64,000 nt of DNA from a virus (Duplodnaviria > Caudoviricetes): positions 22,144 to 86,143 of IMG/VR virus record IMGVR_UViG_2643221939_000004; one strand, written 5' to 3'. The position numbers and the translations under genes were made by a program. Positions 2,951 to 63,174 of this stretch are shown piece by piece (within the stretch, counting starts at the first letter, position 1; the number at the start of each line of letters is the position of its first letter). The notes beneath the pieces were generated by a model. It worked only from the letters and a program-made list of their open reading frames with translations. It had not been told where the DNA came from and searched no databases.

Positions 2951-4092
2951 TGAAATTCACCGACGCTGCACCGATCGCGGACACGCGACGGACGGCAGAC
3001 GGCTATCTCGTCGCGGACGCGCGCATCGTGCGCACCGGCATCCAGGCCTACACCGGCGCGGAGGTCGGCAAGCCCGATCTCGCCATCGTCCGGGTCTACC
3101 GGCCCGAGGCGGAGGTCTTCGACGCCAAGAGCCTCGCCTCCTTCAGCCATGTCCCGATCACGAACGACCATCCGACGGTCGCGGTCACGGCCGACAACTG
3201 GAAAGACCTGGCAGTCGGGGAGACCAGCGGCGAGGTTCTTCGCGACGGTCACCGCCTGCGCATTCCCCTGATCGTCAAGGATGCCTCCGCCATCGCGTCG
3301 ATCGAGGGCGGGAAGCGCGAGCTTTCCGCCGGATACACCTGCGACCTCGCTTTCGAGAGCGGCAAGACCGCCGACGGCGAGTCCTACGACGCCATCCAGA
3401 AGAACATCCGGGCCAACCACGTCGCGATCGTCGCGCGAGGGCGGGCGGGTGCCGAATGCCGCATCGGCGATGCTGCCGGCGGACCATGGGGCGCCGCCCC
3501 GATCAACGATGCCAATCACTCACAGGAGGGCCGTATGGCCGATGCTCTGCGCAAGGTGATGGTCGACGGGCTGCAGGTCGAGACGACCGACGCGGGCGCC
3601 GCTGCCATCGAGAAGATCACGAAGGACAAGCAGGCGGTCGAGACCCGTCTCTCGGATGCCGAGAAGGCGCACGTCACCGCGCTCGCGGCCAAGGATGCCG
3701 AACTCGCCAAGAAGGACGCCGCGATCGACGATCTGAAGGGGAAGGTGCTGTCCGACGCCGATCTCGACAAGCGCGTCCAGGACCGCGCGCTGCTCGTCAC
3801 GGTCGCCGGCATGATCGCCAAGGACGTGAAGACCGCGGGCCTCTCGGATGCTGCGATCAAGAAGGCCGTCGTCGTCGCCAAGCTCGGGGATGCCGCAGTG
3901 GCCGGCAAGTCCGACGCCTACTTCGACGCGCGTTTCGACATCCTCGCGGAGGACGCCGCCAAGGCCGACCCGCTGCGCGATGCACTGCTCGGCCAGCCGC
4001 AGCCCGTCACCGACGCTGCCGTTCCCGAAGCTGCCTGGAAGGCGATGGTCGCCGACATGCAGGCCGCGTCCCGTCCCTCCAAGGCCGCCTGA
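2950..4092 (+). CDS. DUF2213 prohead protease/scaffold
   Basis: TADGYL...ARIVRTGIQ.Y, PITNDHP, RELSAGY, NHVAIV.RGRAG motifs. Confidence 0.9.
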   Translation: MKFTDAAPIADTRRTADGYLVADARIVRTGIQAYTGAEVGKPDLAIVRVYRPEAEVFDAKSLASFSHVPITNDHPTVAVTADNWKDLAVGETSGEVLRDGHRLRIPLIVKDASAIASIEGGKRELSAGYTCDLAFESGKTADGESYDAIQKNIRANHVAIVARGRAGAECRIGDAAGGPWGAAPINDANHSQEGRMADALRKVMVDGLQVETTDAGAAAIEKITKDKQAVETRLSDAEKAHVTALAAKDAELAKKDAAIDDLKGKVLSDADLDKRVQDRALLVTVAGMIAKDVKTAGLSDAAIKKAVVVAKLGDAAVAGKSDAYFDARFDILAEDAAKADPLRDALLGQPQPVTDAAVPEAAWKAMVADMQAASRPSKAA

Positions 4093-4106
4093 AGGAGACC
4101 CTGATC

Positions 4107-4586
4107 ATGGCAACGCTTCAGACCACCTATGGCGGCACGCCTCCGAAGGGCCTCAAGGGCCAGATCGCGAACGAGGAGAGCTGCAACAAGATCAGCCGCT
4201 CCGTCGAGAACGCGGCCGGCATCAAGTTCGGCCAGCCCGTCCAGCGTGGCGCCGGCGATCATGGCGTCGTCCCGTTCGCGGCCGGCGGCAAGTTCATGGG
4301 CTTCGCGGTCCTGAACCCGGCGGTCCCGCCCGTTTCGCCCGGCGCCACGCTGGTCGACGGCTACCCGCAGTTCTTCACCGGCGCCTTCATGACCCGCGGT
4401 CAGATGTACCACGTCGCCGGCGGCACCGTCGCGGACGGCGATCCCGTCTACTACGACACGGTCAATGACCGGGTGGTGGCGGCGGCTGGCACGGGCATCG
4501 TCGGCCCGTTCCCCGAGACCTTCTTCGACACCTCCGGCGCGGCCGGTGCCGTCGTCGAGTTCAGCACCAAGAACCGGAGCGCCTGA
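4107..4586 (+). CDS. Head decoration/cement protein
   Basis: AAGGAG RBS, MATLQTTY start, lies between DUF2213 and capsid genes. Confidence 0.8.
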   Translation: MATLQTTYGGTPPKGLKGQIANEESCNKISRSVENAAGIKFGQPVQRGAGDHGVVPFAAGGKFMGFAVLNPAVPPVSPGATLVDGYPQFFTGAFMTRGQMYHVAGGTVADGDPVYYDTVNDRVVAAAGTGIVGPFPETFFDTSGAAGAVVEFSTKNRSA

Positions 4587-4588
4587 TC

Positions 4589-5566
4589 ATGAACATGCAA
4601 CGCCAGGCCTTCGCAGACGCGCAGGCAGCGTACCCCTTCGTCCTCGCGCAGGGGCGCAACATCGAGACGCGGATCTATCAGCGCCGCTACCCGACCTTCA
4701 ACTACGCGGCCCATGTGCCCGTGGTCACGGAAGGCAACGAGTGGGCGATCGGAACCACGTTCTTCACGATCGACACCGCGGGCGAGGCCAAGTTCCTCTC
4801 CGGCGCCGGCACCGACATGCCGTTCAACCAGGCGACCCGCGATCAGGCGAGCCAGGACTTCGCCATGATCGGCTCCGGCTGGGAATGGAACATTGAGGAG
4901 GTCAATCAGGCGGCCCTTTACGGGATCAACCTGAACGACACGAAGGCGATCTCCGCGGCGGACAAGGTCGAGCGCCTGCTCAACTCCGTTGCCATGGTTG
5001 GCGCCGCCGAGAAGGGCTGGACCGGCTTCGCGAACAACCCGCTGGTGACGCGCATCGATGTTCCTGCCAACGGCACGGGCTCGTCTCGGCTCTGGTCTAC
5101 CAAGACGGTCGATCTGATTCTGAACGACATCAACAACCTGCTCGCCAGCATCCGCAGCAACACAGCTGAAACGGAGTGGGCGGACAGCGTGCGTCTGCCG
5201 CCGGATGCCTTCCGGCTGCTCTCGACCATCCGCGTCGGCTCCGGTGACTTCCTCATCAGCGGGCTCGAGTATCTGCAGAAGGGGAACATCTACACGGCCG
5301 AGACCGGACAGGCGCTCGACATCAAGCCGCTTCGTGAACTCGGCGCAGCCGGCGCCGGCGGCACGGGCCGGATGGTCGCTTACCGCAAGGACCCGGAGGT
5401 TCTGCGCTTCCATCTCCCGATGCCGCGGCGGGTTCTGCCGACCCGTCAGAAGTCCATCATGGGCTTCGAGACCGGCATCATCGCGCGCACCGGTGGCACG
5501 GAAGTCCGTCTCCCCGGCGCCATGGCCTACGCGGACGGTATGTCGCCGGCCCCGAGCGTTCAGTAA
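4589..5566 (+). CDS. Major capsid protein (DUF2184 type)
   Basis: 325 aa; RMVAY.KDP...RFHLPMP and GG.EVR.P.A motifs; synteny. Confidence 0.9.
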   Translation: MNMQRQAFADAQAAYPFVLAQGRNIETRIYQRRYPTFNYAAHVPVVTEGNEWAIGTTFFTIDTAGEAKFLSGAGTDMPFNQATRDQASQDFAMIGSGWEWNIEEVNQAALYGINLNDTKAISAADKVERLLNSVAMVGAAEKGWTGFANNPLVTRIDVPANGTGSSRLWSTKTVDLILNDINNLLASIRSNTAETEWADSVRLPPDAFRLLSTIRVGSGDFLISGLEYLQKGNIYTAETGQALDIKPLRELGAAGAGGTGRMVAYRKDPEVLRFHLPMPRRVLPTRQKSIMGFETGIIARTGGTEVRLPGAMAYADGMSPAPSVQ

Positions 5567-5578
5567 GGAGCGGCGGAC

Positions 5579-6106
5579 GTGAAGATCACGAACAACTCCA
5601 AGGCCCTGCAGGGCATTCATACGGCAGACGGTGGTGTTGCGTATCTCGCGCCGGGCGAGACGCGCGAACTCAGCGTCTTCAAGCGCGACAAGAAGGCGAT
5701 CGACGACGCACCGTTCCTTACCGCCGAAGGAGACTACGCGCCGAATCCTGACGAGCCGCCGCAGCCTCCTGAGACAAGCAAGGTGGAGCCAGAAGCGATC
5801 CTCGCGGCAATCGCCAGCCTGCGAGAGGACGTTTTCAGCAGGGTGGACGCTTTGAACGGTGTCGTTGAGAACTTGGGTGCGCGGTTGATCGCATCCCAAG
5901 AGACTTCGGAGAACGGCTCGGCTCCGAACACCGGTGCCCCAGCCACGAGCGTCTATGCGGTCGTCGGCAAGGCTGGCGGCTGGAACGTCGTGACGAAGGA
6001 TGGCGTGCCCGTCACTAAGTCCCTCCGCGACGAGGCGGTGAAGGACTTCGACGCCAAGTCCGAAGACGACAAGGCCTCCTTCGTCGAGGCCAACAAGCCC
6101 GACTGA
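5579..6106 (+). CDS. Hypothetical structural-region protein
   Basis: AAGGAG RBS directly after capsid gene. Confidence 0.75.
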   Translation: MKITNNSKALQGIHTADGGVAYLAPGETRELSVFKRDKKAIDDAPFLTAEGDYAPNPDEPPQPPETSKVEPEAILAAIASLREDVFSRVDALNGVVENLGARLIASQETSENGSAPNTGAPATSVYAVVGKAGGWNVVTKDGVPVTKSLRDEAVKDFDAKSEDDKASFVEANKPD

Positions 6107-6205
6107 CGCGATGGCGGGCAGCCGGTACCATCCCCGCTGCCCGCATCCCTCTGACCTTCCACAACCCGCAACCGGCGGGCGCTTTCGTGCGCATTGGAGA
6201 AGTGA

Positions 6206-26464: not shown

Positions 26465-26539
26465 GCGGGCGTAGTTCAGCGGTAGAACGCCAGCTTCCCA
26501 AGCTGGATGTCGTGGGTTCGATCCCCATCGCCCGCTCCA
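26465..26539 (+). tRNA. tRNA-Gly(CCC)
   Basis: Full cloverleaf: GCGGGCG/CGCCCGC acceptor, CCAGC-TTCCCAA-GCTGG anticodon arm, TTCGA loop, encoded CCA. Confidence 0.97.
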
Positions 26540-26540
26540 A
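26492..26540 (+). repeat. attL core of prophage 2 (49 bp)
   Basis: Identical to 63126-63174. Confidence 0.95.
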
Positions 26541-58539: not shown

Positions 58540-58861
58540 AACGGCAGCGCTCTGGACCGTCGCGGCAGCCGTGGTCGGCCGATGCGCCTGGGCTTTTCTC
58601 AAGGCTTTCCGAGAAGGCCAGGAAGCCGCTCCGTTGAACGCTGCCGTGGCGATGCGCGCGATCGGAGCAGGGCTGAACGGCACGCTCGACGGCGCCAAGC
58701 TGAACGAGACGCTGGAGCGGATCGCGGCGTCCGTCGCCTCCATCGCAGCGAGCGCGGCTACCATCGCGAAGCTCGAGGAGGCGGGCACGGCGGAAGCGAT
58801 TGAGGCTCAAGGCCGGAAGCTGGATGATCTCATGGCGGAGATGCGTCGGCAGGAGCGGTGA
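58505..58861 (+). CDS. TM + coiled-coil protein
   Basis: GAGGAGG upstream; last late gene. Confidence 0.65.
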   Translation: MLEWLATLRDPETAALWTVAAAVVGRCAWAFLKAFREGQEAAPLNAAVAMRAIGAGLNGTLDGAKLNETLERIAASVASIAASAATIAKLEEAGTAEAIEAQGRKLDDLMAEMRRQER

Positions 58862-58916
58862 GGATGCGGGGGCTGTCAGGTTCACTTTTTACCGGCGCCG
58901 GCTATTCGAACGGCCC

Positions 58917-58947
58917 AGACCGCTGATCACTAAAAGGTCAGCGGTCT
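58917..58947. terminator. Hairpin between the convergent late operon and cargo operon
   Basis: AGACCGCTGA/TCAGCGGTCT perfect 10-bp stem. Confidence 0.6.
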
Positions 58948-59014
58948 TGATGCGTTAAGAATGTGCTGGTTCGTCACCCCGACCTCGGGTCAATAGCTCA
59001 ATCAACCCATAATA

Positions 59015-60157
59015 TTACAGATTGGCCGCCTGCAGCAGAGTTTTGTAAAGAGCGCTCGACCCAGAGCTTCCGGGTGCGAAATTTTTTGTAGTAAACGTTG
59101 ATGCAGGCAAGTCTATAGTATTAAAAACGGACGAAAACTCGTCCTGACCAACGATCCGAGGGGTGTCTGTTTTAGAAAGATACGCATCCTGAAGAAATCG
59201 AATCAATGCGTTGTAGCCATTTGTTCGATTTAGAATAAATCCCTGATCTGACGAGTTCCAAGCTGTAGGCCACCTCTCGCGTACCGCTGCGAAGAAGTTG
59301 CTAACAATAGAAAATACCGCAACAGGGTCTTCGTTGCGATAAAAAGGCGTAAAAATATGCTGGCGAAAGGAGTCCTTGGGGGCAGGTCTGCTTGCTAAAC
59401 CCAAGAAGCCCTTGTTCCGCTCCTGGTCGGGGTTCGAAGGAAAATGACGGAGTAGTCCTCGAACGACAGTTGCCTGGGAGAGTGTCTCTTTTTCATCTAT
59501 TCCAGGCGTGGCAATCCCCAATCGCTTTATCCTCTGATAAAATGGACCGTCTTGATCTCGAACAAGTGCAATTACTACTTCATGCGCCATCTTAAATGGG
59601 CTCGGTGATTTGGCATAGGAAAACAGATCGTAGACAAGGCTTCTATTAACCTTCGTTTGAGCTAGATTAACAGTCGAAAAAATTTCAGCCTTGTCAGCCA
59701 TATCTACGCCGACAAAAATTGAAACGTTGACCTCGAAAGGCCTATCTTTCTTATGATAACCAAGGCCAGCAAGCCTATGCTGACCATCAATAATGAAGGC
59801 GGAGCGATCAATCGTTATAGCTTCTTCGTTTTCGCCTCCAGAATATCCATGAATGGTGAGTTGGTATAACCCCTCGCATCCTGCCATAGGTTCAATCGAC
59901 GCAGCGCGCTCATCAACTGCAATAACGATCGAAGTAGGAAACGTTGCGTAGTCGAAATTTACATATTCACCAATTTTTGTCACACGAGCAGTTGAAAGCT
60001 GCCGCTGTATGCCGGCAATATCCTCTGGATGCCCGTTAACAAAGTCTCGAACGTCAACTGTTGCAATCGACTCCAGTACCTCGGCACGAATTGCACCAAT
60101 GTAGAATTGGCCGATAGGCTGGTCTACCCGCAAAACCTTGAGAACTACGTTTTCCAT
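59015..60157 (-). CDS. DGQHR-domain (DndB/ParB-like) protein
   Basis: GIQR.L...R...I..Y, FPTSI, IIDGQHRL.G, F..VN..Q.KV..SL.YDL. Confidence 0.92.
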   Translation of the reverse strand: MENVVLKVLRVDQPIGQFYIGAIRAEVLESIATVDVRDFVNGHPEDIAGIQRQLSTARVTKIGEYVNFDYATFPTSIVIAVDERAASIEPMAGCEGLYQLTIHGYSGGENEEAITIDRSAFIIDGQHRLAGLGYHKKDRPFEVNVSIFVGVDMADKAEIFSTVNLAQTKVNRSLVYDLFSYAKSPSPFKMAHEVVIALVRDQDGPFYQRIKRLGIATPGIDEKETLSQATVVRGLLRHFPSNPDQERNKGFLGLASRPAPKDSFRQHIFTPFYRNEDPVAVFSIVSNFFAAVRERWPTAWNSSDQGFILNRTNGYNALIRFLQDAYLSKTDTPRIVGQDEFSSVFNTIDLPASTFTTKNFAPGSSGSSALYKTLLQAANL

Positions 60158-60693
60158 CAGCGTCCTCCTCGGCTGCGTGACTGTGATATGATGTTATCCG
60201 CGCGATTTACAGTGCTTTCTGCAGATGCTAAGAAATCAACTCTCTTTGATTTAATTGACATAAATAACCAAGCAAGATTTAGGAGGACATAAAGGATTAA
60301 AATAACTTGCAACAGCCAAGTTGGTCGAGCAGCCTCGAACCCTGGATTGTCGCCAACTATCGCGCCGATGACAAAGGCTCCTAGCGTAACTAACAGAGCG
60401 AAGATCGCATTTGTAGAGGTGCTTGCGCTGTTTGGTTTAAAGACGATAATGAATAGTATCGAACCGCAGACGCCAAGCGCTACGAGAGATAGTTCGCCTT
60501 TTGCAAAAAATGATATGAAGGATGCTTCAAATCCGGCGGCATCAAATTCGGGCCGCCTGGAAATAGCCAAGAACGCAGCTACAAATATTGGAGCAAAATT
60601 GAAAAATAGGCTGAAAACAAGTTCAAGAATTGATTCAGCTAACGGATATCTTTCGAGAAACTCGCCAACCTTACGCATTAACATGCCTTCCAA
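60157..60693 (-). CDS. Four-TM membrane protein
   Basis: Four hydrophobic segments; overlaps both neighbours; start probably 60684 or 60678. Confidence 0.8.
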   Translation of the reverse strand: MEGMLMRKVGEFLERYPLAESILELVFSLFFNFAPIFVAAFLAISRRPEFDAAGFEASFISFFAKGELSLVALGVCGSILFIIVFKPNSASTSTNAIFALLVTLGAFVIGAIVGDNPGFEAARPTWLLQVILILYVLLNLAWLFMSIKSKRVDFLASAESTVNRADNIISQSRSRGGR

Positions 60694-61486
60694 TCATGTA
60701 CATCGCCTCCGTCGTCTTTTTGCGCATTGAGCTGTCGCCCGCAATTACAGAATATCTATTCAACGGAACAGGCTCCGCTTCAGATCTGTACAGCTCGCGT
60801 ATTGAGTCGTGATCAGCATTGGTGAGAAATATGCGCGCGCCTCGACGGGCGGCTCTTACTAAGGCATCCTTTAATCTGACTTGATCATCCCAGCTGAACA
60901 TCTTTTGGTTGTACTTAACAAAGCCATTTGTGTTATGGGCCGTGGTGTAGGGTGGGTCCACAAAAAGAGTGTCATTTTCCGATGCGAGATCAACTGTCTC
61001 TTCGAAGTCGCAGCTTACTAGTTTTGCTCTTTTTAGTAATTCTGAGGCGCTGGTAAAGTCGTCGTTTGGGAAGAGAAGCTGCGTTTTAGAGCCGATGGGT
61101 ACGTTGAACTGTCCTCGCGTGTTTTCTCTGTACAGGCCATTCCAGCATGATCTATTCAGATAGAGAAATTGAGCAGCGCGCTCTAGCAAAGTTCCGTATT
61201 CTGTTGTCCTGGTTGTATAGTAATAGTCGCTATTATGTCGTTGAGCATGATCGGAAAGAAGTTTGTAAACAAGATGAGGATCGGATCTAATCGCCTCATA
61301 AGTTTCAATGAGCCTCGTATTTACGTCGCTAAGAATGGCTTGTTCGGGACTTGTATGGAAAAATACTGCTCCGCCCCCTAGAAAGGGTTCGATGTAGCGC
61401 GTGCCTCGCATATCCAGGTTCAGAAGCTTCCGCTCTACAAGCCACCGCTTGCCGCCTGCCCACTTCAGGAATGGTTTTAAAGCCAC
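60671..61486 (-). CDS. Dam-family (D12 class) N6-adenine DNA methyltransferase
   Basis: KPFLKWAGGK, EPFLGGGAV, FLYLNR..WNGLYR.N..G.FNVP, DPPY. Confidence 0.93.
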   Translation of the reverse strand: MALKPFLKWAGGKRWLVERKLLNLDMRGTRYIEPFLGGGAVFFHTSPEQAILSDVNTRLIETYEAIRSDPHLVYKLLSDHAQRHNSDYYYTTRTTEYGTLLERAAQFLYLNRSCWNGLYRENTRGQFNVPIGSKTQLLFPNDDFTSASELLKRAKLVSCDFEETVDLASENDTLFVDPPYTTAHNTNGFVKYNQKMFSWDDQVRLKDALVRAARRGARIFLTNADHDSIRELYRSEAEPVPLNRYSVIAGDSSMRKKTTEAMYMIGRHVNA

Positions 61487-61602
61487 GTCGTACCCTTACA
61501 CAACCAGAGCACGATGCATGGAGCTCCGTTGGTTGACGGTCAAGATACCTTGCCGTTTTGTTGTCACATTGTGGCTCGAAGGCCGACGCTTGGTTTAGGC
61601 GA

Positions 61603-62979
61603 TCAATATGAGGGCTTCGCACCACCCTTGGCTTGTAAGGCAAGGTTCACGACATTGTCCCTTCGGTCCGCGAAGGCTAGGATCTCTTGCAGAAGTGCGG
61701 CCCAGGCGTCCAGCGCTGCGCGCTTCTCCCGCATGTAGGCGTTGCGGTCATAGACAGCCGTCACCGCCGCCGTTCCGCCGCTATCGCTCGTGTGGTTGAG
61801 AACCTGGCTGACGGTGAACCGAGGCATGCCGATGCGCTCGCTGGTGATGGCGGTCGCGCCGGTTCGGCGGAGGTCATGCAGCGTGATGCCGGTCACGGGT
61901 TTCGTCCTCTTCGGATCGAGCCTCGTCGGAGACGGGACCTTCAGTTTCGGTAGAAGGCGCCACCAGGCATGAGACAAGGCCATCGACCCGACGGCTTTGT
62001 CGGGGCTTCGCGGTGACGGGAAGACGAATGCGCTGTCGCGCGCCGATCCGGCGCGAAGAGCGAGAGCCTCCTCGATCAGGGAGAAGGCGAGGTCGGAAAG
62101 CGGCACGACATGAAGCCGGCCGTTCTTGGTCCGCTCGCCCTGCATGGTCCACGTCCTCGCGCGCGCGTCGACCTCGTCTACCATCATTCCGACGATCTCC
62201 CCGCGACGCTGAAGCGTCACGGCGGCCAGCTTGATCGCGAGCGCCATCGGCGGTGAGACGCTGACCCCTTCGATGTCTGCCACGGCATCGAGCCCCTGCC
62301 ATACGGCCCGCAGCTCATTGTCATTCAGGATGCGCTCTCGCTCCTTCCAGCTCGGCGCGGAGACGAAGCGGGTGGGGTCGGTCGTGATGATGTCTTGCCA
62401 CATGGCATAGGCGAAGATCTTCTGCAGGACGTTGCGCGCGTGGCGCGCCGCGCTTGGCGACATCTCCGCCTCCATCTTGTCGACGGCGATCTGGATCTCG
62501 GCGCGGGTCAACTCGACGAGGGGGCGGCTGCCCAGGCGCGGAACCACCACCTTCTCGAAATAGCTGCGCTCCAGAGCTTGCGGGCCGGCGCGCATCGGCT
62601 TGCCGTTGAAGCGGTGCCGGCCGGTCGCCGTCTTCTCGATGTAGATGCGGCCGACAGCCTCGACGGTGTCGATGCGCCTCTGCGCCGCCGCTGCCGCCTG
62701 GGCCTTCCGCTCGGCCCCAGCGTCGATGCCGTCCGCGAGGGAGGCGAGGAGCTTGGACGCCTTGTCGCGGGCGAGGCTGATGGGCAGATCGGGGAAGCGG
62801 CCGATGCCGATCTTCTTCGACCGGCCGCCGCGATCGTCGCGCACGCACCATGACATGGTGCCGGCCGGCGAAACGCGGAGATAGAGGCCCCGCTGTTTCG
62901 TGTCGCGATAATCGACCGCGTTCTTCTCGGGCCTGGGAAGGCCTTCTATGCCTCCCTTGGTGTTCGGCAGCTCGGGCAT
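61603..62979 (-). CDS. int: Tyrosine integrase with arm-binding domain
   Basis: GLYLRV...G, IG.FP...L..AR; T.QRRGE, TKNG..H.VPL, HDLRRT, LNH, Y. Confidence 0.95.
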   Translation of the reverse strand: MPELPNTKGGIEGLPRPEKNAVDYRDTKQRGLYLRVSPAGTMSWCVRDDRGGRSKKIGIGRFPDLPISLARDKASKLLASLADGIDAGAERKAQAAAAAQRRIDTVEAVGRIYIEKTATGRHRFNGKPMRAGPQALERSYFEKVVVPRLGSRPLVELTRAEIQIAVDKMEAEMSPSAARHARNVLQKIFAYAMWQDIITTDPTRFVSAPSWKERERILNDNELRAVWQGLDAVADIEGVSVSPPMALAIKLAAVTLQRRGEIVGMMVDEVDARARTWTMQGERTKNGRLHVVPLSDLAFSLIEEALALRAGSARDSAFVFPSPRSPDKAVGSMALSHAWWRLLPKLKVPSPTRLDPKRTKPVTGITLHDLRRTGATAITSERIGMPRFTVSQVLNHTSDSGGTAAVTAVYDRNAYMREKRAALDAWAALLQEILAFADRRDNVVNLALQAKGGAKPSY

Positions 62980-62981
62980 CG

Positions 62982-63010
62982 TTGGACGGCCTTGGACGGA
63001 TATTGGACGG
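62982..63010. repeat. TTGGACGG x3 integrase arm-type sites (right)
   Basis: Copies at 62982, 62992 and 63003. Confidence 0.75.
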
Positions 63011-63125
63011 ATCGGGCCGGCCGGCCCTGAACCGTAGTGAACAACCGTGAAGGCTGCCGTCAAGAGAATCCAATGAAATCAATGGGTGAAAACCGGAGGA
63101 AACGGCGACGAACAGCTCTAGGTAT

Positions 63126-63174
63126 AGCTTCCCAAGCTGGATGTCGTGGGTTCGATCCCCATCGCCCGCTCCAA
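63126..63174 (+). repeat. attR core (3' part of tRNA-Gly)
   Basis: Identical to 26492-26540; lacks the tRNA 5' half. Confidence 0.95.

What the first reader, a model, noticed from the sequence alone, without database searches (positions are those of the whole stretch)
59015..61486. Low-GC operon of Dam MTase, 4-TM protein and DGQHR protein: candidate methylation-linked defence system
Seen: three overlapping minus-strand genes, much more AT-rich than the phage, in the cargo slot between lysis genes and integrase. There is a TTGAC-G-GTCAA palindrome upstream (61533-61543) and a hairpin downstream. No restriction endonuclease and no dndCDE genes are present. Known: DGQHR/DndB-family proteins are ParB-like nucleotide/DNA-binding proteins of phosphorothioate-associated loci and, as I recall, of the Dazbog system; small TM proteins are common abortive-infection effectors. 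Inference: the MTase marks self DNA, the DGQHR protein senses the modification state of incoming DNA, and the TM protein is the effector. I do not recognise this trio as a named system.
Basis: partly seen in the sequence, partly recalled or inferred. Interest (0 to 1): 0.85.

Follow-up and report, generated by a model that had tools for sequence, protein, structure and literature searches.

The report
Methylase, membrane protein, DGQHR prophage cassette
A prophage carries a foreign three-gene operon: a DNA adenine methylase, a small four-helix membrane protein and a ParB-like "DGQHR" protein. It is one copy of a widespread, unnamed and untested gene module that nearly always sits beside DNA-marking enzymes, so it is probably a new kind of immunity keyed to DNA marks.

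Summary
Three translationally coupled minus-strand genes (Dam/DpnM-type methylase, 4-TM protein, 380-aa DGQHR protein) form a low-GC island (0.44-0.47 against about 0.67). The island lies inside a tRNA-Gly prophage, between the lysis genes and the integrase.

The conserved unit is the pair, not the trio.
- In 72 of 79 related loci a multi-TM ORF lies directly upstream of the DGQHR gene.
- In 70 of 79 a DNA-modification gene lies within 5 kb: Dam 46, DpnII R-M 5 (plus 1 cut copy), MT-A70 7, another D12 methylase 1, Dnd phosphorothioation 10.
- Partners swap between near-identical pairs (DGQHR 81% identical, Dam against MT-A70).
- In Dnd loci the pair follows dptH, where Salmonella has DndI, a phosphorothioate-sensing ParB-like nuclease.

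The DGQHR N-domain has a ParB/sulfiredoxin fold. Its C-domain and the membrane protein match nothing solved. No nuclease domain was found.

Best reading (about 0.5): a methylation-keyed self/non-self module, with the pair standing where a restriction enzyme would. All function is inferred. Nine of 79 pairs lack a nearby modification gene.

PADLOC (2023) and seven literature searches found no named equivalent. This scan has already reported the same module on at least eight other genomes.

The parts
60671..61486 (-). Dam/DpnM-type N6-adenine DNA methyltransferase, 271 aa, GTG start; probably GATC-specific (inferred)
   Evidence: PF02086 7.9e-46. TIGR00571 217.9 bits, above its cut-off. PADLOC MTase_II PDLC03266 313.8 bits. 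Closest solved chains: DpnM 2dpm 4.9e-44, then E. coli Dam 2g1p 5.4e-31. DPPY motif present. It is the only D12 MTase in the genome.
60157..60693 (-). Small membrane protein (178 aa from TTG 60693; more likely 173 aa from ATG 60678): four TM helices plus a long C-terminal helix; obligate partner of the DGQHR gene
   Evidence: No family in 4 libraries. Model pLDDT 94.2, pTM 0.81; helices 17-45, 67-85, 92-115, 125-176. No PDB match at E<=0.001. A profile of 63 partners finds 2,618 cluster representatives at E<=1e-3, and the best 150 are 150-253 aa. A same-strand ORF with >=2 TM segments lies upstream of DGQHR in 72 of 79 loci.
59015..60157 (-). DGQHR-domain protein, 380 aa: N-terminal ParB/sulfiredoxin-fold domain (about 12-166, motif D124-G-Q-H-R128) and a helical C-terminal domain (about 177-380) of unknown fold
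   Evidence: TIGR03187 178 bits. 1,985 relatives at E<=1e-3 in the 90% clusters. The motif is invariant in 24 sequences. Model pLDDT 79. Fold matches: PadC Z 7.6 (rmsd 2.9, 96 aligned), sulfiredoxin 6.5, KorB 6.5, pNOB8 ParB-N 6.0. C-domain best Z is 4.3.
61533..61543 (.). 11-bp palindrome TTGAC-G-GTCAA, 47-57 nt upstream of the MTase start; holds a TTGACC -35-like hexamer on the minus strand
   Evidence: Present and unique in the window. Not conserved in relatives. No promoter was called here by the consensus scan. Function not shown.
58917..58947 (.). Hairpin (10-bp perfect stem, 11-nt loop) 68 nt downstream of the DGQHR stop, at the GC transition
   Evidence: Read. Fold of 58900-59014: -38 kcal/mol, z = -2.1. 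No T-run, and not listed by the terminator scan.
61603..63063 (-). Context: prophage tyrosine integrase next to the cassette
   Evidence: PF13356, PF22022 and PF00589.
63126..63174 (+). Context: attR, a perfect 49-nt copy of the 3' end of tRNA-Gly (attL at 26492-26540)

Best explanation
The cassette is a horizontally acquired prophage cargo operon. It is one member of a widespread module whose core is an obligate pair: a small four-helix inner-membrane protein and a ParB/sulfiredoxin-fold DGQHR protein. In different genomes this pair is plugged into whichever DNA-marking enzyme lies beside it.

Here the marking enzyme is a DpnM/Dam-type adenine methylase, probably acting on GATC. It would methylate the roughly 55,000 GATC sites of the lysogen and the 351 of the prophage.

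Most likely mechanism (inferred):
1. The DGQHR protein is a nucleotide-driven ParB-like switch that tests DNA for the mark.
2. On marked (self) DNA it is released or kept off. On unmarked incoming DNA it stays engaged.
3. Through its membrane partner it then blocks the invader, by membrane damage (abortive infection), by exclusion, or by tethering at the entry site.

The pair thus stands where a restriction enzyme stands in an R-M system, and where DndI stands in Dnd systems.

Shown: the genes, their coupling, their conservation, partner swapping, and the folds. Not shown: the methylated motif, binding between the two proteins, NTPase activity, any toxicity, any phage protection.
For: 1. The pair is conserved. 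72 of 79 loci have a >=2-TM ORF directly upstream on the same strand, and 63 of those have >=3 TM. ORFs overlap in 62 of 72, with starts taken as the first ATG/GTG/TTG, which may overstate overlap.
2. Reciprocal test from the membrane-protein profile: hits in 5 of 400 other genomes of the class. 4 of those 5 have a DGQHR gene immediately downstream, and 2 of 5 have Dam upstream.
3. Link to DNA modification: 70 of 79 loci have a modification gene within 5 kb (families).
4. Partners swap at short distance. L012 (Dam) and L014 (MT-A70) have DGQHR 81% and membrane proteins 66% identical. The quick tree of 76 rows needs 20 label changes.
5. Distance matrices correlate best within the pair: DGQHR-TM r = 0.71, DGQHR-Dam 0.52, TM-Dam 0.31, on the same 46 loci.
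6. In the gamma-proteobacterial Dnd loci (L051, L053, L060, L063, L064; domains checked in L053) the order is DptH, membrane protein, DGQHR. This is convergent with dndE-D-C-B, and a true DndB (TIGR03233, 463.8 bits) is present separately. That is the position described for DndI, a DUF262(DGQQR)+HNH protein cotranscribed with dndFGH. DndI's ATPase is stimulated by phosphorothioate DNA, and it restricts unmodified phage (PMC11662687; abstract and first part of Results read).
7. No REase cluster recurs in the 46 Dam loci. The MTase scores higher on R-M-type PADLOC models (313.8 bits) than on orphan-MTase models (196.5 bits).
8. Mobile and defence-like setting: low-GC cargo next to a prophage integrase here; the full trio near the end of a 58-kb viral contig, L083; integrases beside 5 loci; flanking ORFs hit RmrA, SoFic, PDC-S04, CapP, PsyrT and PDC-S41 models (no control).
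9. GATC is plentiful: 54,749 sites, observed/Markov-expected 1.09.
Against: - No nuclease or other effector domain was recognised in either protein.
- 9 of 79 pairs have no modification gene within 5 kb. Some of these are at contig edges. L008 lies between flagellar and transport genes.
- Of 5 such genomes, only 2 have a D12 methylase anywhere. That is no better than 6 of 14 control genomes.
- One reader would have to cope with chemically different marks (m6A and phosphorothioate).
- In 5 loci a complete DpnII R-M system is already present, so the pair would be redundant as a restriction arm.
- Characterised DGQHR proteins are not restriction factors. DndB is a transcriptional regulator (PMC4507180, passages read). 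DpdB is described as an ATPase that helps base insertion (PMC12839542, passage read).
- In L071 and L080 the pair follows dndC-dndD-dndE on the same strand, the side of modification.
- The module is rare in viral collections: 0 close relatives in 50,697 phage records and 2 in IMG/VR.
- A later check of one earlier report of this module in this scan gave its bold reading odds of 4 in 100.
Confidence: 0.5

Rival explanations
1. The pair is a controller or cofactor of DNA modification, not a weapon. Like DndB (repressor of dnd) or DpdB (ATPase that helps DpdA modify DNA), the DGQHR protein tunes how much, when or where the neighbouring enzyme marks DNA. The membrane protein localises it.
For: The only characterised DGQHR proteins act on the modification side (PMC4507180 passages; PMC12839542 passage). 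In L071 and L080 the pair ends a dndC-dndD-dndE operon. The pair is linked to modification genes of several chemistries, as a general helper would be. No effector domain was found.
Against: Dam-type methylases need no ATPase helper (general knowledge). The gamma-proteobacterial Dnd loci keep a separate true DndB and place the pair behind dptH, on the restriction side. 9 of 79 pairs have no modification gene nearby. A fast-evolving membrane partner (median identity 14.5%, against 42.6% for DGQHR) is unusual for a housekeeping regulator.
Confidence: 0.2
2. Metis-like alarm. The ParB/Srx-fold nucleotide pocket of the DGQHR protein, or the membrane protein itself, senses modified mononucleotides (such as m6dAMP) or phosphorothioate-linked fragments released when a phage degrades the marked host genome. 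It then opens or activates the membrane protein to abort infection.
For: Type II Metis is a 3-TM effector triggered by m6dAMP, and it depends on Dam (bioRxiv 10.1101/2025.11.05.686725; abstract, first part of Results and the type II section read). This reading explains how one pair could serve marks of different chemistry and different sequence context. It also explains a membrane effector with no nuclease.
Against: None of the Metis domains is present: no PUA-metallophosphatase, no HAD phosphatase. Metis uses the host's own methylases, whereas here a methylase is tightly linked. That holds even in Alphaproteobacteria-labelled loci, which as I recall already make m6A with CcrM. The linkage to complete DpnII systems points to GATC sites in DNA rather than free nucleotides.
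Confidence: 0.1
3. Addiction or stabilisation module. The membrane protein is a toxin held in check by the DGQHR protein and/or by methylation. Loss of the cassette, and with it the prophage or island, kills the cell. Phage defence, if any, is a by-product.
For: The genes are small and translationally coupled, with a fast-evolving membrane partner. The cassette sits on mobile elements next to integrases. R-M systems themselves behave as addiction modules (stated in PMC4507180, Discussion passage).
Against: Broken copies keep the other genes (L073 and L079 have split DGQHR genes). The strong, repeated link to modification genes is not needed for a plain toxin-antitoxin pair.
Confidence: 0.1
4. 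The methylase is simply a prophage anti-restriction or epigenetic gene, and the two downstream genes are unrelated cargo that happen to be adjacent.
For: Orphan Dam methylases are common on phages (general knowledge; stated in PMC10853773, passage read). No interaction has been shown.
Against: Order and strand are conserved in 37 of 80 loci spanning many phyla as labelled in the record titles. Both junctions overlap here. The reciprocal search recovers the same neighbours.
Confidence: 0.05

Closest known systems
DGQHR proteins that lie behind dptH in Dnd phosphorothioation loci; NCBIfam TIGR04172 'DNA phosphorothioation-associated DGQHR protein 1' is the nearest curated model
   Same: Full-length homology: 36% identity, E 1e-70 to the L053 protein. 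TIGR04172 aligns end to end, 2-379 of 381. These loci have the same upstream membrane ORF. A DGQHR protein at this position, between DptH and DptE, was listed in Serratia odorifera (PMC3226654, Table 2 passage read).
   Different: The window protein scores 173 bits against a cut-off of 450. The Dnd-linked proteins tested here also stay below it, at 189-213 bits. Here the partner is a Dam methylase and the genome has no DndD. No function is published for this family in the texts I saw, and its membrane partner has no family model.
DndI (Salmonella enterica Cerro 87), with SspE and BrxU/GmrSD: ParB-like DUF262 (DGQQR) NTPase fused to an HNH nuclease
   Same: A ParB/Srx-fold domain with a DGQxR motif. 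Same operon position after dndFGH. Coupled to a DNA-modification module. DndI senses the mark through its ATPase and spares self DNA (PMC11662687). SspE and BrxU appear among weak fold matches: Z 4.2 (rmsd 4.3, 118 aligned) and Z 3.8 (rmsd 4.4, 105 aligned).
   Different: No HNH/DUF1524 or any other nuclease domain. 380 aa against the 1,971-bp dndI ORF (about 656 aa). A separate obligate membrane protein takes the place of the fused nuclease. The mark here is adenine methylation. No sequence-level match to solved DndI or SspE chains.
DndB (TIGR03233 / PF14072) and DpdB (NF041060)
   Same: Same DGQHR domain (TIGR03187), and both are linked to DNA-modification genes.
   Different: DndB: 23% identity over the N-terminal 175 aa only; PF14072 covers 2-160 of 338; TIGR03233 is not hit. 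DpdB: 78 bits against a cut-off of 300. Neither is described with a membrane partner in the texts I read.
Type II R-M systems of the DpnII/MboI (GATC) kind
   Same: The methylase is closest to DpnM. Five related loci carry DpnM + DpnA-type methylase + R.DpnII beside the pair. The pair occupies the place of the REase in the 46 Dam loci.
   Different: No REase family here or anywhere in the genome with PF04556. Neither protein of the pair has a recognisable nuclease fold.
Metis type II (MisC 3-TM effector + MisB HAD phosphatase)
   Same: Defence that depends on Dam methylation and ends in a small membrane effector (bioRxiv 10.1101/2025.11.05.686725).
   Different: No HAD phosphatase, and no sign of homology (no sequence was available to compare). 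The methylase is encoded in the operon here, whereas Metis relies on host methylases.

Membership tests
Dam / D12-class N6-adenine DNA methyltransferase | Scores above the curated cut-offs of PF02086 and TIGR00571 | tested here: met
   157.3 bits against 22; 217.9 bits against 114.85.
Dam / D12-class N6-adenine DNA methyltransferase | Catalytic DPPY motif | tested here: met
   'FVDPPYTT' in the translation, aligned to 'DPPY' of DpnM and E. coli Dam.
Dam / D12-class N6-adenine DNA methyltransferase | GATC specificity | not testable with these tools
   Inferred only. The best solved relatives are the GATC enzymes DpnM and Dam. The loop 'LYLNRSCWNGLYRENTRGQFNVPIG' aligns with the Dam loop; that this loop reads GATC is recalled, not fetched. 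Relatives sit in DpnII systems. Needs SMRT or nanopore data.
DGQHR domain family (TIGR03187) | Scores above the cut-off and keeps the DGQHR motif | tested here: met
   178 bits against 58.85. D124-G-Q-H-R128 is invariant in 24 sequences.
DndB (TIGR03233; PF14072 full length) | Full-length match to the DndB model | tested here: not met
   PF14072 covers 2-160 of 338 at 36 bits. TIGR03233 is not among the hits. A true DndB scores 463.8 bits. BLASTP 23% identity, E 8e-4.
DndB (TIGR03233; PF14072 full length) | Encoded with dndCDE | tested here: not met
   No dnd genes in the window. 0 matches to DndD (TIGR03185) in the 100%-complete genome.
TIGR04172 DNA phosphorothioation-associated DGQHR protein 1 | Score at or above the curated cut-off of 450 bits | tested here: not met
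   173.1 bits. Alignment is end to end, so it is a sister group, not a member.
DpdB (NF041060) | Score at or above 300 bits, and dpdA/dpdC neighbours | tested here: not met
   78.2 bits. PADLOC DpdB 86.7 bits over residues 4-239. No dpd genes among the ORFs of the region.
DndI / SspE / GmrSD (DUF262 + HNH/DUF1524) | C-terminal HNH (DUF1524) nuclease domain | tested here: not met
   Pfam finds only the DndB N-part. The C-domain 177-380 has no match above Z 4.3. 'Not met' rests on the Pfam result. The fold search alone would be inconclusive.
   Only DpdB models hit the DGQHR protein, and nothing hit the membrane protein, at E<=0.01. That PADLOC-DB 2.0.0 holds Dazbog models is recalled, not shown by the output.
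Metis (MisA/MisB/MisC) | PF00149 metallophosphatase with a PUA-like domain, or a PF13419 HAD phosphatase partner | tested here: not met
   Neither family appears in any of the three proteins. Domain definitions are from the preprint's Results. MisC itself could not be compared because no sequence was held.
Type II restriction-modification system | A cognate restriction endonuclease next to the methylase | tested here: inconclusive
   No REase family in the operon and no DpnII family in the genome. An unrecognised nuclease in the DGQHR C-domain cannot be excluded.

The most novel reading that the evidence does not exclude
The membrane protein + DGQHR pair is a universal, mark-agnostic 'reader-executor' that can be bolted onto any DNA-marking enzyme (m6A by Dam or MT-A70, phosphorothioate by Dnd). 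It would work by a principle not yet described for R-M-like immunity. One version: a ParB-like nucleotide-gated clamp anchored at the membrane interrogates DNA as it enters the cell and kills or excludes when the mark is missing. Another version: it senses marked nucleotides set free by genome degradation. Either way it is a restriction arm without a nuclease.
Probability: 0.12. Interest if true: 0.85.

Novelty: new variant of a known kind. Interest (0 to 1): 0.62.

Why it matters
If the pair is an immunity effector, it is a widespread kind of modification-based self/non-self discrimination that ends at the membrane instead of at a nuclease, and it has no name and no experiment behind it. The DGQHR search found 1,985 relatives at E<=0.001 among 90%-identity clusters, and the membrane-protein profile found 2,618 representatives of 50%-identity clusters.

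It would give a function to one branch of the DGQHR family and to a large membrane-protein family that has no model in Pfam or NCBIfam. It would also explain why many 'orphan' Dam methylases on mobile elements are not orphans.

For this genome in particular, the prophage supplies the cell's only D12-class methylase. It could therefore change the methylation state of about 55,000 GATC sites upon lysogeny.

It is directly testable with a 2.5-kb clone.

Tried and rejected
I made no other attempt to dock them.
As that tool advised, I used another tool: a genome search profile search plus tblastn.
- Cargo-slot comparison in related prophages: the amidase query found one related element in 60 relatives (G008, 62% identity over residues 11-183). 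Its surroundings are not syntenic, so no 'empty slot' or alternative cargo could be shown.
- Expression: no RNA holder listed.
- Promoter and terminator consensus scans of 58700-61800 gave 4 and 4 sites, against 3.2 and 3.3 expected. No signal.
- Conservation of the upstream palindrome: TTGAC occurs in 10 of 45 upstream regions. Only L011 of the 8 related upstream regions printed shows a comparable palindrome. Rejected as a family feature.
- Fused forms: the 'longer' search (666-2000 aa) found none at E<=1e-10 (weak evidence by the tool's own note). The best 150 membrane-protein relatives are all 150-253 aa.
- HEPN in the C-domain (suggested for DndB in PMC3632139): no conserved Rx4-6H among the invariant columns, and no HEPN family hit. 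Rejected for this protein.
- Do orphan pairs rely on a Dam elsewhere? 2 of 5 genomes have a D12 MTase, against 6 of 14 controls. Uninformative.
- Defence-island test: I scanned 118 of 128 flanking ORFs with PADLOC. I dropped the 10 ORFs of the near-duplicate loci L003, L045, L047, L056, L057 and L062 to fit the size limit. 171 families matched at E<=1e-10, but the output gives no per-ORF count and I had no control set. This is descriptive only.
- Sequence profile of the DGQHR family against PDB sequences: nothing (best E 0.94).
- The Atlas search for the membrane protein gave only unnamed clusters, and structure rows with TM-score <=0.45.
- The tree is the quick tree. The careful search did not finish and I did not resume it. 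4 of 79 loci with DGQHR ORFs under 330 aa were left out.
- Supplementary tables of the papers were not opened. Those of PMC11662687, PMC10853773 and the Metis preprint could list this gene pair.

Full report
**1. What is in the window**

Three minus-strand ORFs fill 59015-61486.

- The first, 60671-61486, is a D12-class adenine methylase.
  - It matches PF02086 at 7.9e-46 and TIGR00571 at 217.9 bits, above the cut-off. It has a DPPY motif.
  - Its closest solved relatives are the GATC enzymes DpnM (4.9e-44) and E. coli Dam (5.4e-31).
- The second, 60157-60693, more likely starts at ATG 60678, as in the collection's 173-aa copy.
  - It has no family in Pfam, NCBIfam, PADLOC or PHROGs.
  - It folds confidently (pLDDT 94.2) into four membrane helices, the last running on as a long helix to residue 176.
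  - No solved structure resembles it.
- The third, 59015-60157, is a DGQHR-domain protein (TIGR03187, 178 bits).

The methylase stop overlaps the membrane-gene start by 8 nt. The membrane-gene stop and the DGQHR start share TGATG.

GC falls from 0.65-0.70 to 0.44-0.47 exactly over the cassette.

A perfect 49-nt repeat at 26492-26540 (3' end of tRNA-Gly) and 63126-63174 bounds the prophage. The cassette lies inside it, between the lysis region and the integrase at 61603-63063.

The upstream palindrome and a downstream hairpin exist. Neither stands out as functional: the consensus scans are at chance level, and the palindrome is not conserved in relatives.

The genome holds no DndD and no DpnII endonuclease, and this is its only D12 methylase.

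GATC is abundant and not avoided. The genome has 54,749 sites, observed over Markov-expected 1.09. The prophage has 351 sites, ratio 1.25.

**2. What is conserved**

The DGQHR protein has 1,985 relatives at E<=1e-3 among 90%-identity clusters. The best 120 are 45-65% identical and 331-404 aa long.

A pattern scan of one genome per species gave 484 confirmed relatives. The 80 best were fetched with flanks.

- 51 of 80 loci hold a relative of the window's methylase.
- 37 of 80 have it upstream on the same strand, with room for one small gene. That gene has at least 2 hydrophobic segments in 35 of the 37.
- Clustering all ORFs showed that the membrane ORF goes with the DGQHR gene even where there is no Dam. 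Of 79 loci with a DGQHR ORF, 72 have a same-strand upstream ORF with >=2 TM segments, and 63 have >=3.
- The seven exceptions include one gene at a contig edge (L032) and three truncated or split DGQHR genes (L059, L073, L079).
- The two ORFs overlap in 62 of 72 loci. Starts were taken at the first possible codon, so this may be overstated.

The membrane proteins evolve fast. Their median pairwise identity is 14.5%, against 42.6% for DGQHR and 45.3% for Dam. A word-based search therefore found only the protein itself.

A profile of 63 of them finds 2,618 cluster representatives at E<=1e-3 (1,278 at 1e-10). The best 150 are all 150-253 aa.

I ran the reciprocal test with that profile. It hit 5 of 400 other genomes of the same class. 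In 4 of the 5 a DGQHR gene follows at once, and 2 have Dam upstream. The fifth hit is weak and holds a stop codon.

**3. The variable partner**

Within 5 kb of the pair lies one of the following (families):

| Partner | Loci (of 79) |
|---|---|
| Dam-type methylase | 46 |
| Complete DpnII system (Dam-type + N6_N4 methylase + PF04556 endonuclease) | 5 |
| DpnII copy cut by a contig end | 1 |
| MT-A70 methylase | 7 |
| Divergent D12 methylase | 1 |
| Dnd phosphorothioation genes | 10 |
| Nothing recognisable | 9 |

The quick maximum-likelihood tree of 76 DGQHR proteins needs 20 changes of partner label, against a shuffled mean of 29.7. MT-A70 is scattered: 7 changes for 7 rows.

The clearest case is L012 against L014. 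L012 has Dam upstream. L014 has MT-A70 downstream on the other strand. Their DGQHR proteins are 81% identical and their membrane proteins 66% identical.

Distance matrices agree best within the pair: r = 0.71, against 0.52 for DGQHR-Dam and 0.31 for TM-Dam. All three correlations share phylogeny.

In the gamma-proteobacterial Dnd loci the order is DptH, membrane protein, DGQHR. This is convergent with dndE-dndD-dndC-dndB, and a genuine DndB (TIGR03233, 463.8 bits) is present as well.

A DGQHR protein at that spot was already listed in a 2011 phylogenetic-profiling table for Serratia odorifera (PMC3226654, passage read). It is the basis of TIGR04172. The window protein aligns to that model end to end but scores 173 against a cut-off of 450. 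The Dnd-linked proteins of my set also stay below the cut-off.

**4. Structure**

The model of the DGQHR protein (pLDDT 79) has two domains.

- N-terminal domain, about 12-166: a ParB/sulfiredoxin fold. Matches are PadC Z 7.6 (rmsd 2.9, 96 aligned), sulfiredoxin 6.5, KorB 6.5 and pNOB8 ParB-N 6.0. SspE (Z 4.2, rmsd 4.3, 118 aligned) and BrxU (Z 3.8, rmsd 4.4, 105 aligned) come lower. The Foldseek top hit is a ParB-CTP clamp at E 4.5e-3. These Z values are modest by the tool's own note, but they agree with the family assignment.
- C-terminal helical domain, 177-380: no match above Z 4.3.

No nuclease family was found.

**5. Literature**

'DGQHR' occurs in 8 papers of the library, and none describes this module.

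- The closest experimental system is DndI of Salmonella. It is a DUF262(DGQQR)+HNH protein cotranscribed with dndFGH. It defends together with DndBCDE, its ATPase is stimulated by phosphorothioate DNA, and it releases self DNA (PMC11662687; abstract and first part of Results read). The pair studied here sits at the same operon position, but it has a membrane protein where DndI has a nuclease.
- Metis is a Dam-dependent system whose type II form uses a 3-TM effector triggered by m6dAMP. It has different genes (10.1101/2025.11.05.686725; abstract, Results part 1 and the type II section read). It does offer a rival mechanism.
- Passages found by word search mention no such pair in PMC10853773, PMC12839542, PMC3632139 or PMC13092281.
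- Other searches: DndI, 'DndB-like' with 'defense system' (0 papers), DndB/methyltransferase/transmembrane/anti-phage, PF14072, DndB/prophage/island/hotspot, HEPN/ParB/DndB/methylase.
- Supplements were not seen.

This scan's own notes report the same module on at least eight other genomes, with the same general reading. I reached the pair-plus-variable-partner picture, before reading those notes, so they agree with it but are not independent proof.

**6. Reading**

The data show a mobile module whose fixed part is the membrane protein + DGQHR pair and whose exchangeable part is a DNA-marking enzyme.

The simplest account is that the pair is the 'restriction-side' partner of the mark, analogous to DndI or SspE, with the membrane protein as executor or anchor. 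I give this 0.5.

The points against it are real:

- No effector domain was found.
- 9 of 79 pairs have no nearby marking gene, and 3 of 5 such genomes have no D12 methylase at all.
- Two chemically unrelated marks would have to be read.
- The pair would be redundant beside complete DpnII systems.
- DndB and DpdB set a precedent for DGQHR proteins working on the modification side.

Rivals: regulator or cofactor of modification (0.2), Metis-like nucleotide alarm (0.1), addiction module (0.1), unrelated neighbours (0.05).

**7. Verdict**

The module is not in PADLOC-DB 2.0.0, and I found it in no paper. It belongs to the known broad kind of modification-linked immunity with ParB-like sensors, so I class it as a new variant of a known kind. 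It is of clear but not first-time interest for this scan.

Noticed in passing
window 26492-26540 and 63126-63174: A perfect 49-nt direct repeat: the 3' end of tRNA-Gly(CCC) and its copy just beyond the integrase. These are the att sites, and they set the prophage at about 26.5-63.2 kb.
   Followed up: partly
L025:4075-6405, L040:3141-5501, L041:4036-6312, L062:4127-6400, L079:2483-4120: A second, large DGQHR protein (545-786 aa). In L025, the one tested, it carries a DGQHR domain plus a Swt1-like HEPN domain (PF18731). It sits beside the Dam gene and the membrane+DGQHR pair, giving a four-gene variant with a candidate RNase.
   Followed up: partly
L006:2118-3095: A ThyX-like gene (PF02511, 1e-54) lies directly upstream of the membrane+DGQHR pair, where other loci have a methylase. 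This may hint at a different nucleotide or DNA modification partner.
   Followed up: no
L071:4877-6361 and L080:4839-6404: A 494-521-aa protein follows dndC-dndD and immediately precedes the membrane+DGQHR pair on the same strand. The L071 copy, the one scanned, is DndE fused to a HerA/FtsK-like ATPase.
   Followed up: no
own genome, contig C5:115889-116014 (L002): At the very end of a contig, a 42-aa stretch is 64% identical to residues 103-144 (DGQHR motif region) of the window protein, in high-GC DNA. No membrane ORF or methylase was seen upstream. It may be a second, different DGQHR protein cut off by the assembly.
   Followed up: partly
L011, 56 nt upstream of its Dam start: GTCAA-TA-TTGAC palindrome at almost the same distance as the window's TTGAC-C-GTCAA (-57). 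None of the other 7 related upstream regions printed has a comparable palindrome.
   Followed up: partly
L003:242-3538, L004:77-2590, L015:1997-4243, L066:61-1827: A clustered long ORF (the L004 copy is UvrB-like by Pfam) lies directly upstream of the cassette in the two closest relatives (L003, L004), and several kb upstream of the pair in L015 and L066. The cassette may have inserted next to uvrB.
   Followed up: no
L083 (IMG/VR contig of 57,963 bp), 3617-6122 of the locus: The full Dam, 4-TM, DGQHR trio also sits about 1.5 kb from the end of a predicted viral contig, a position like the one in this window.
   Followed up: partly
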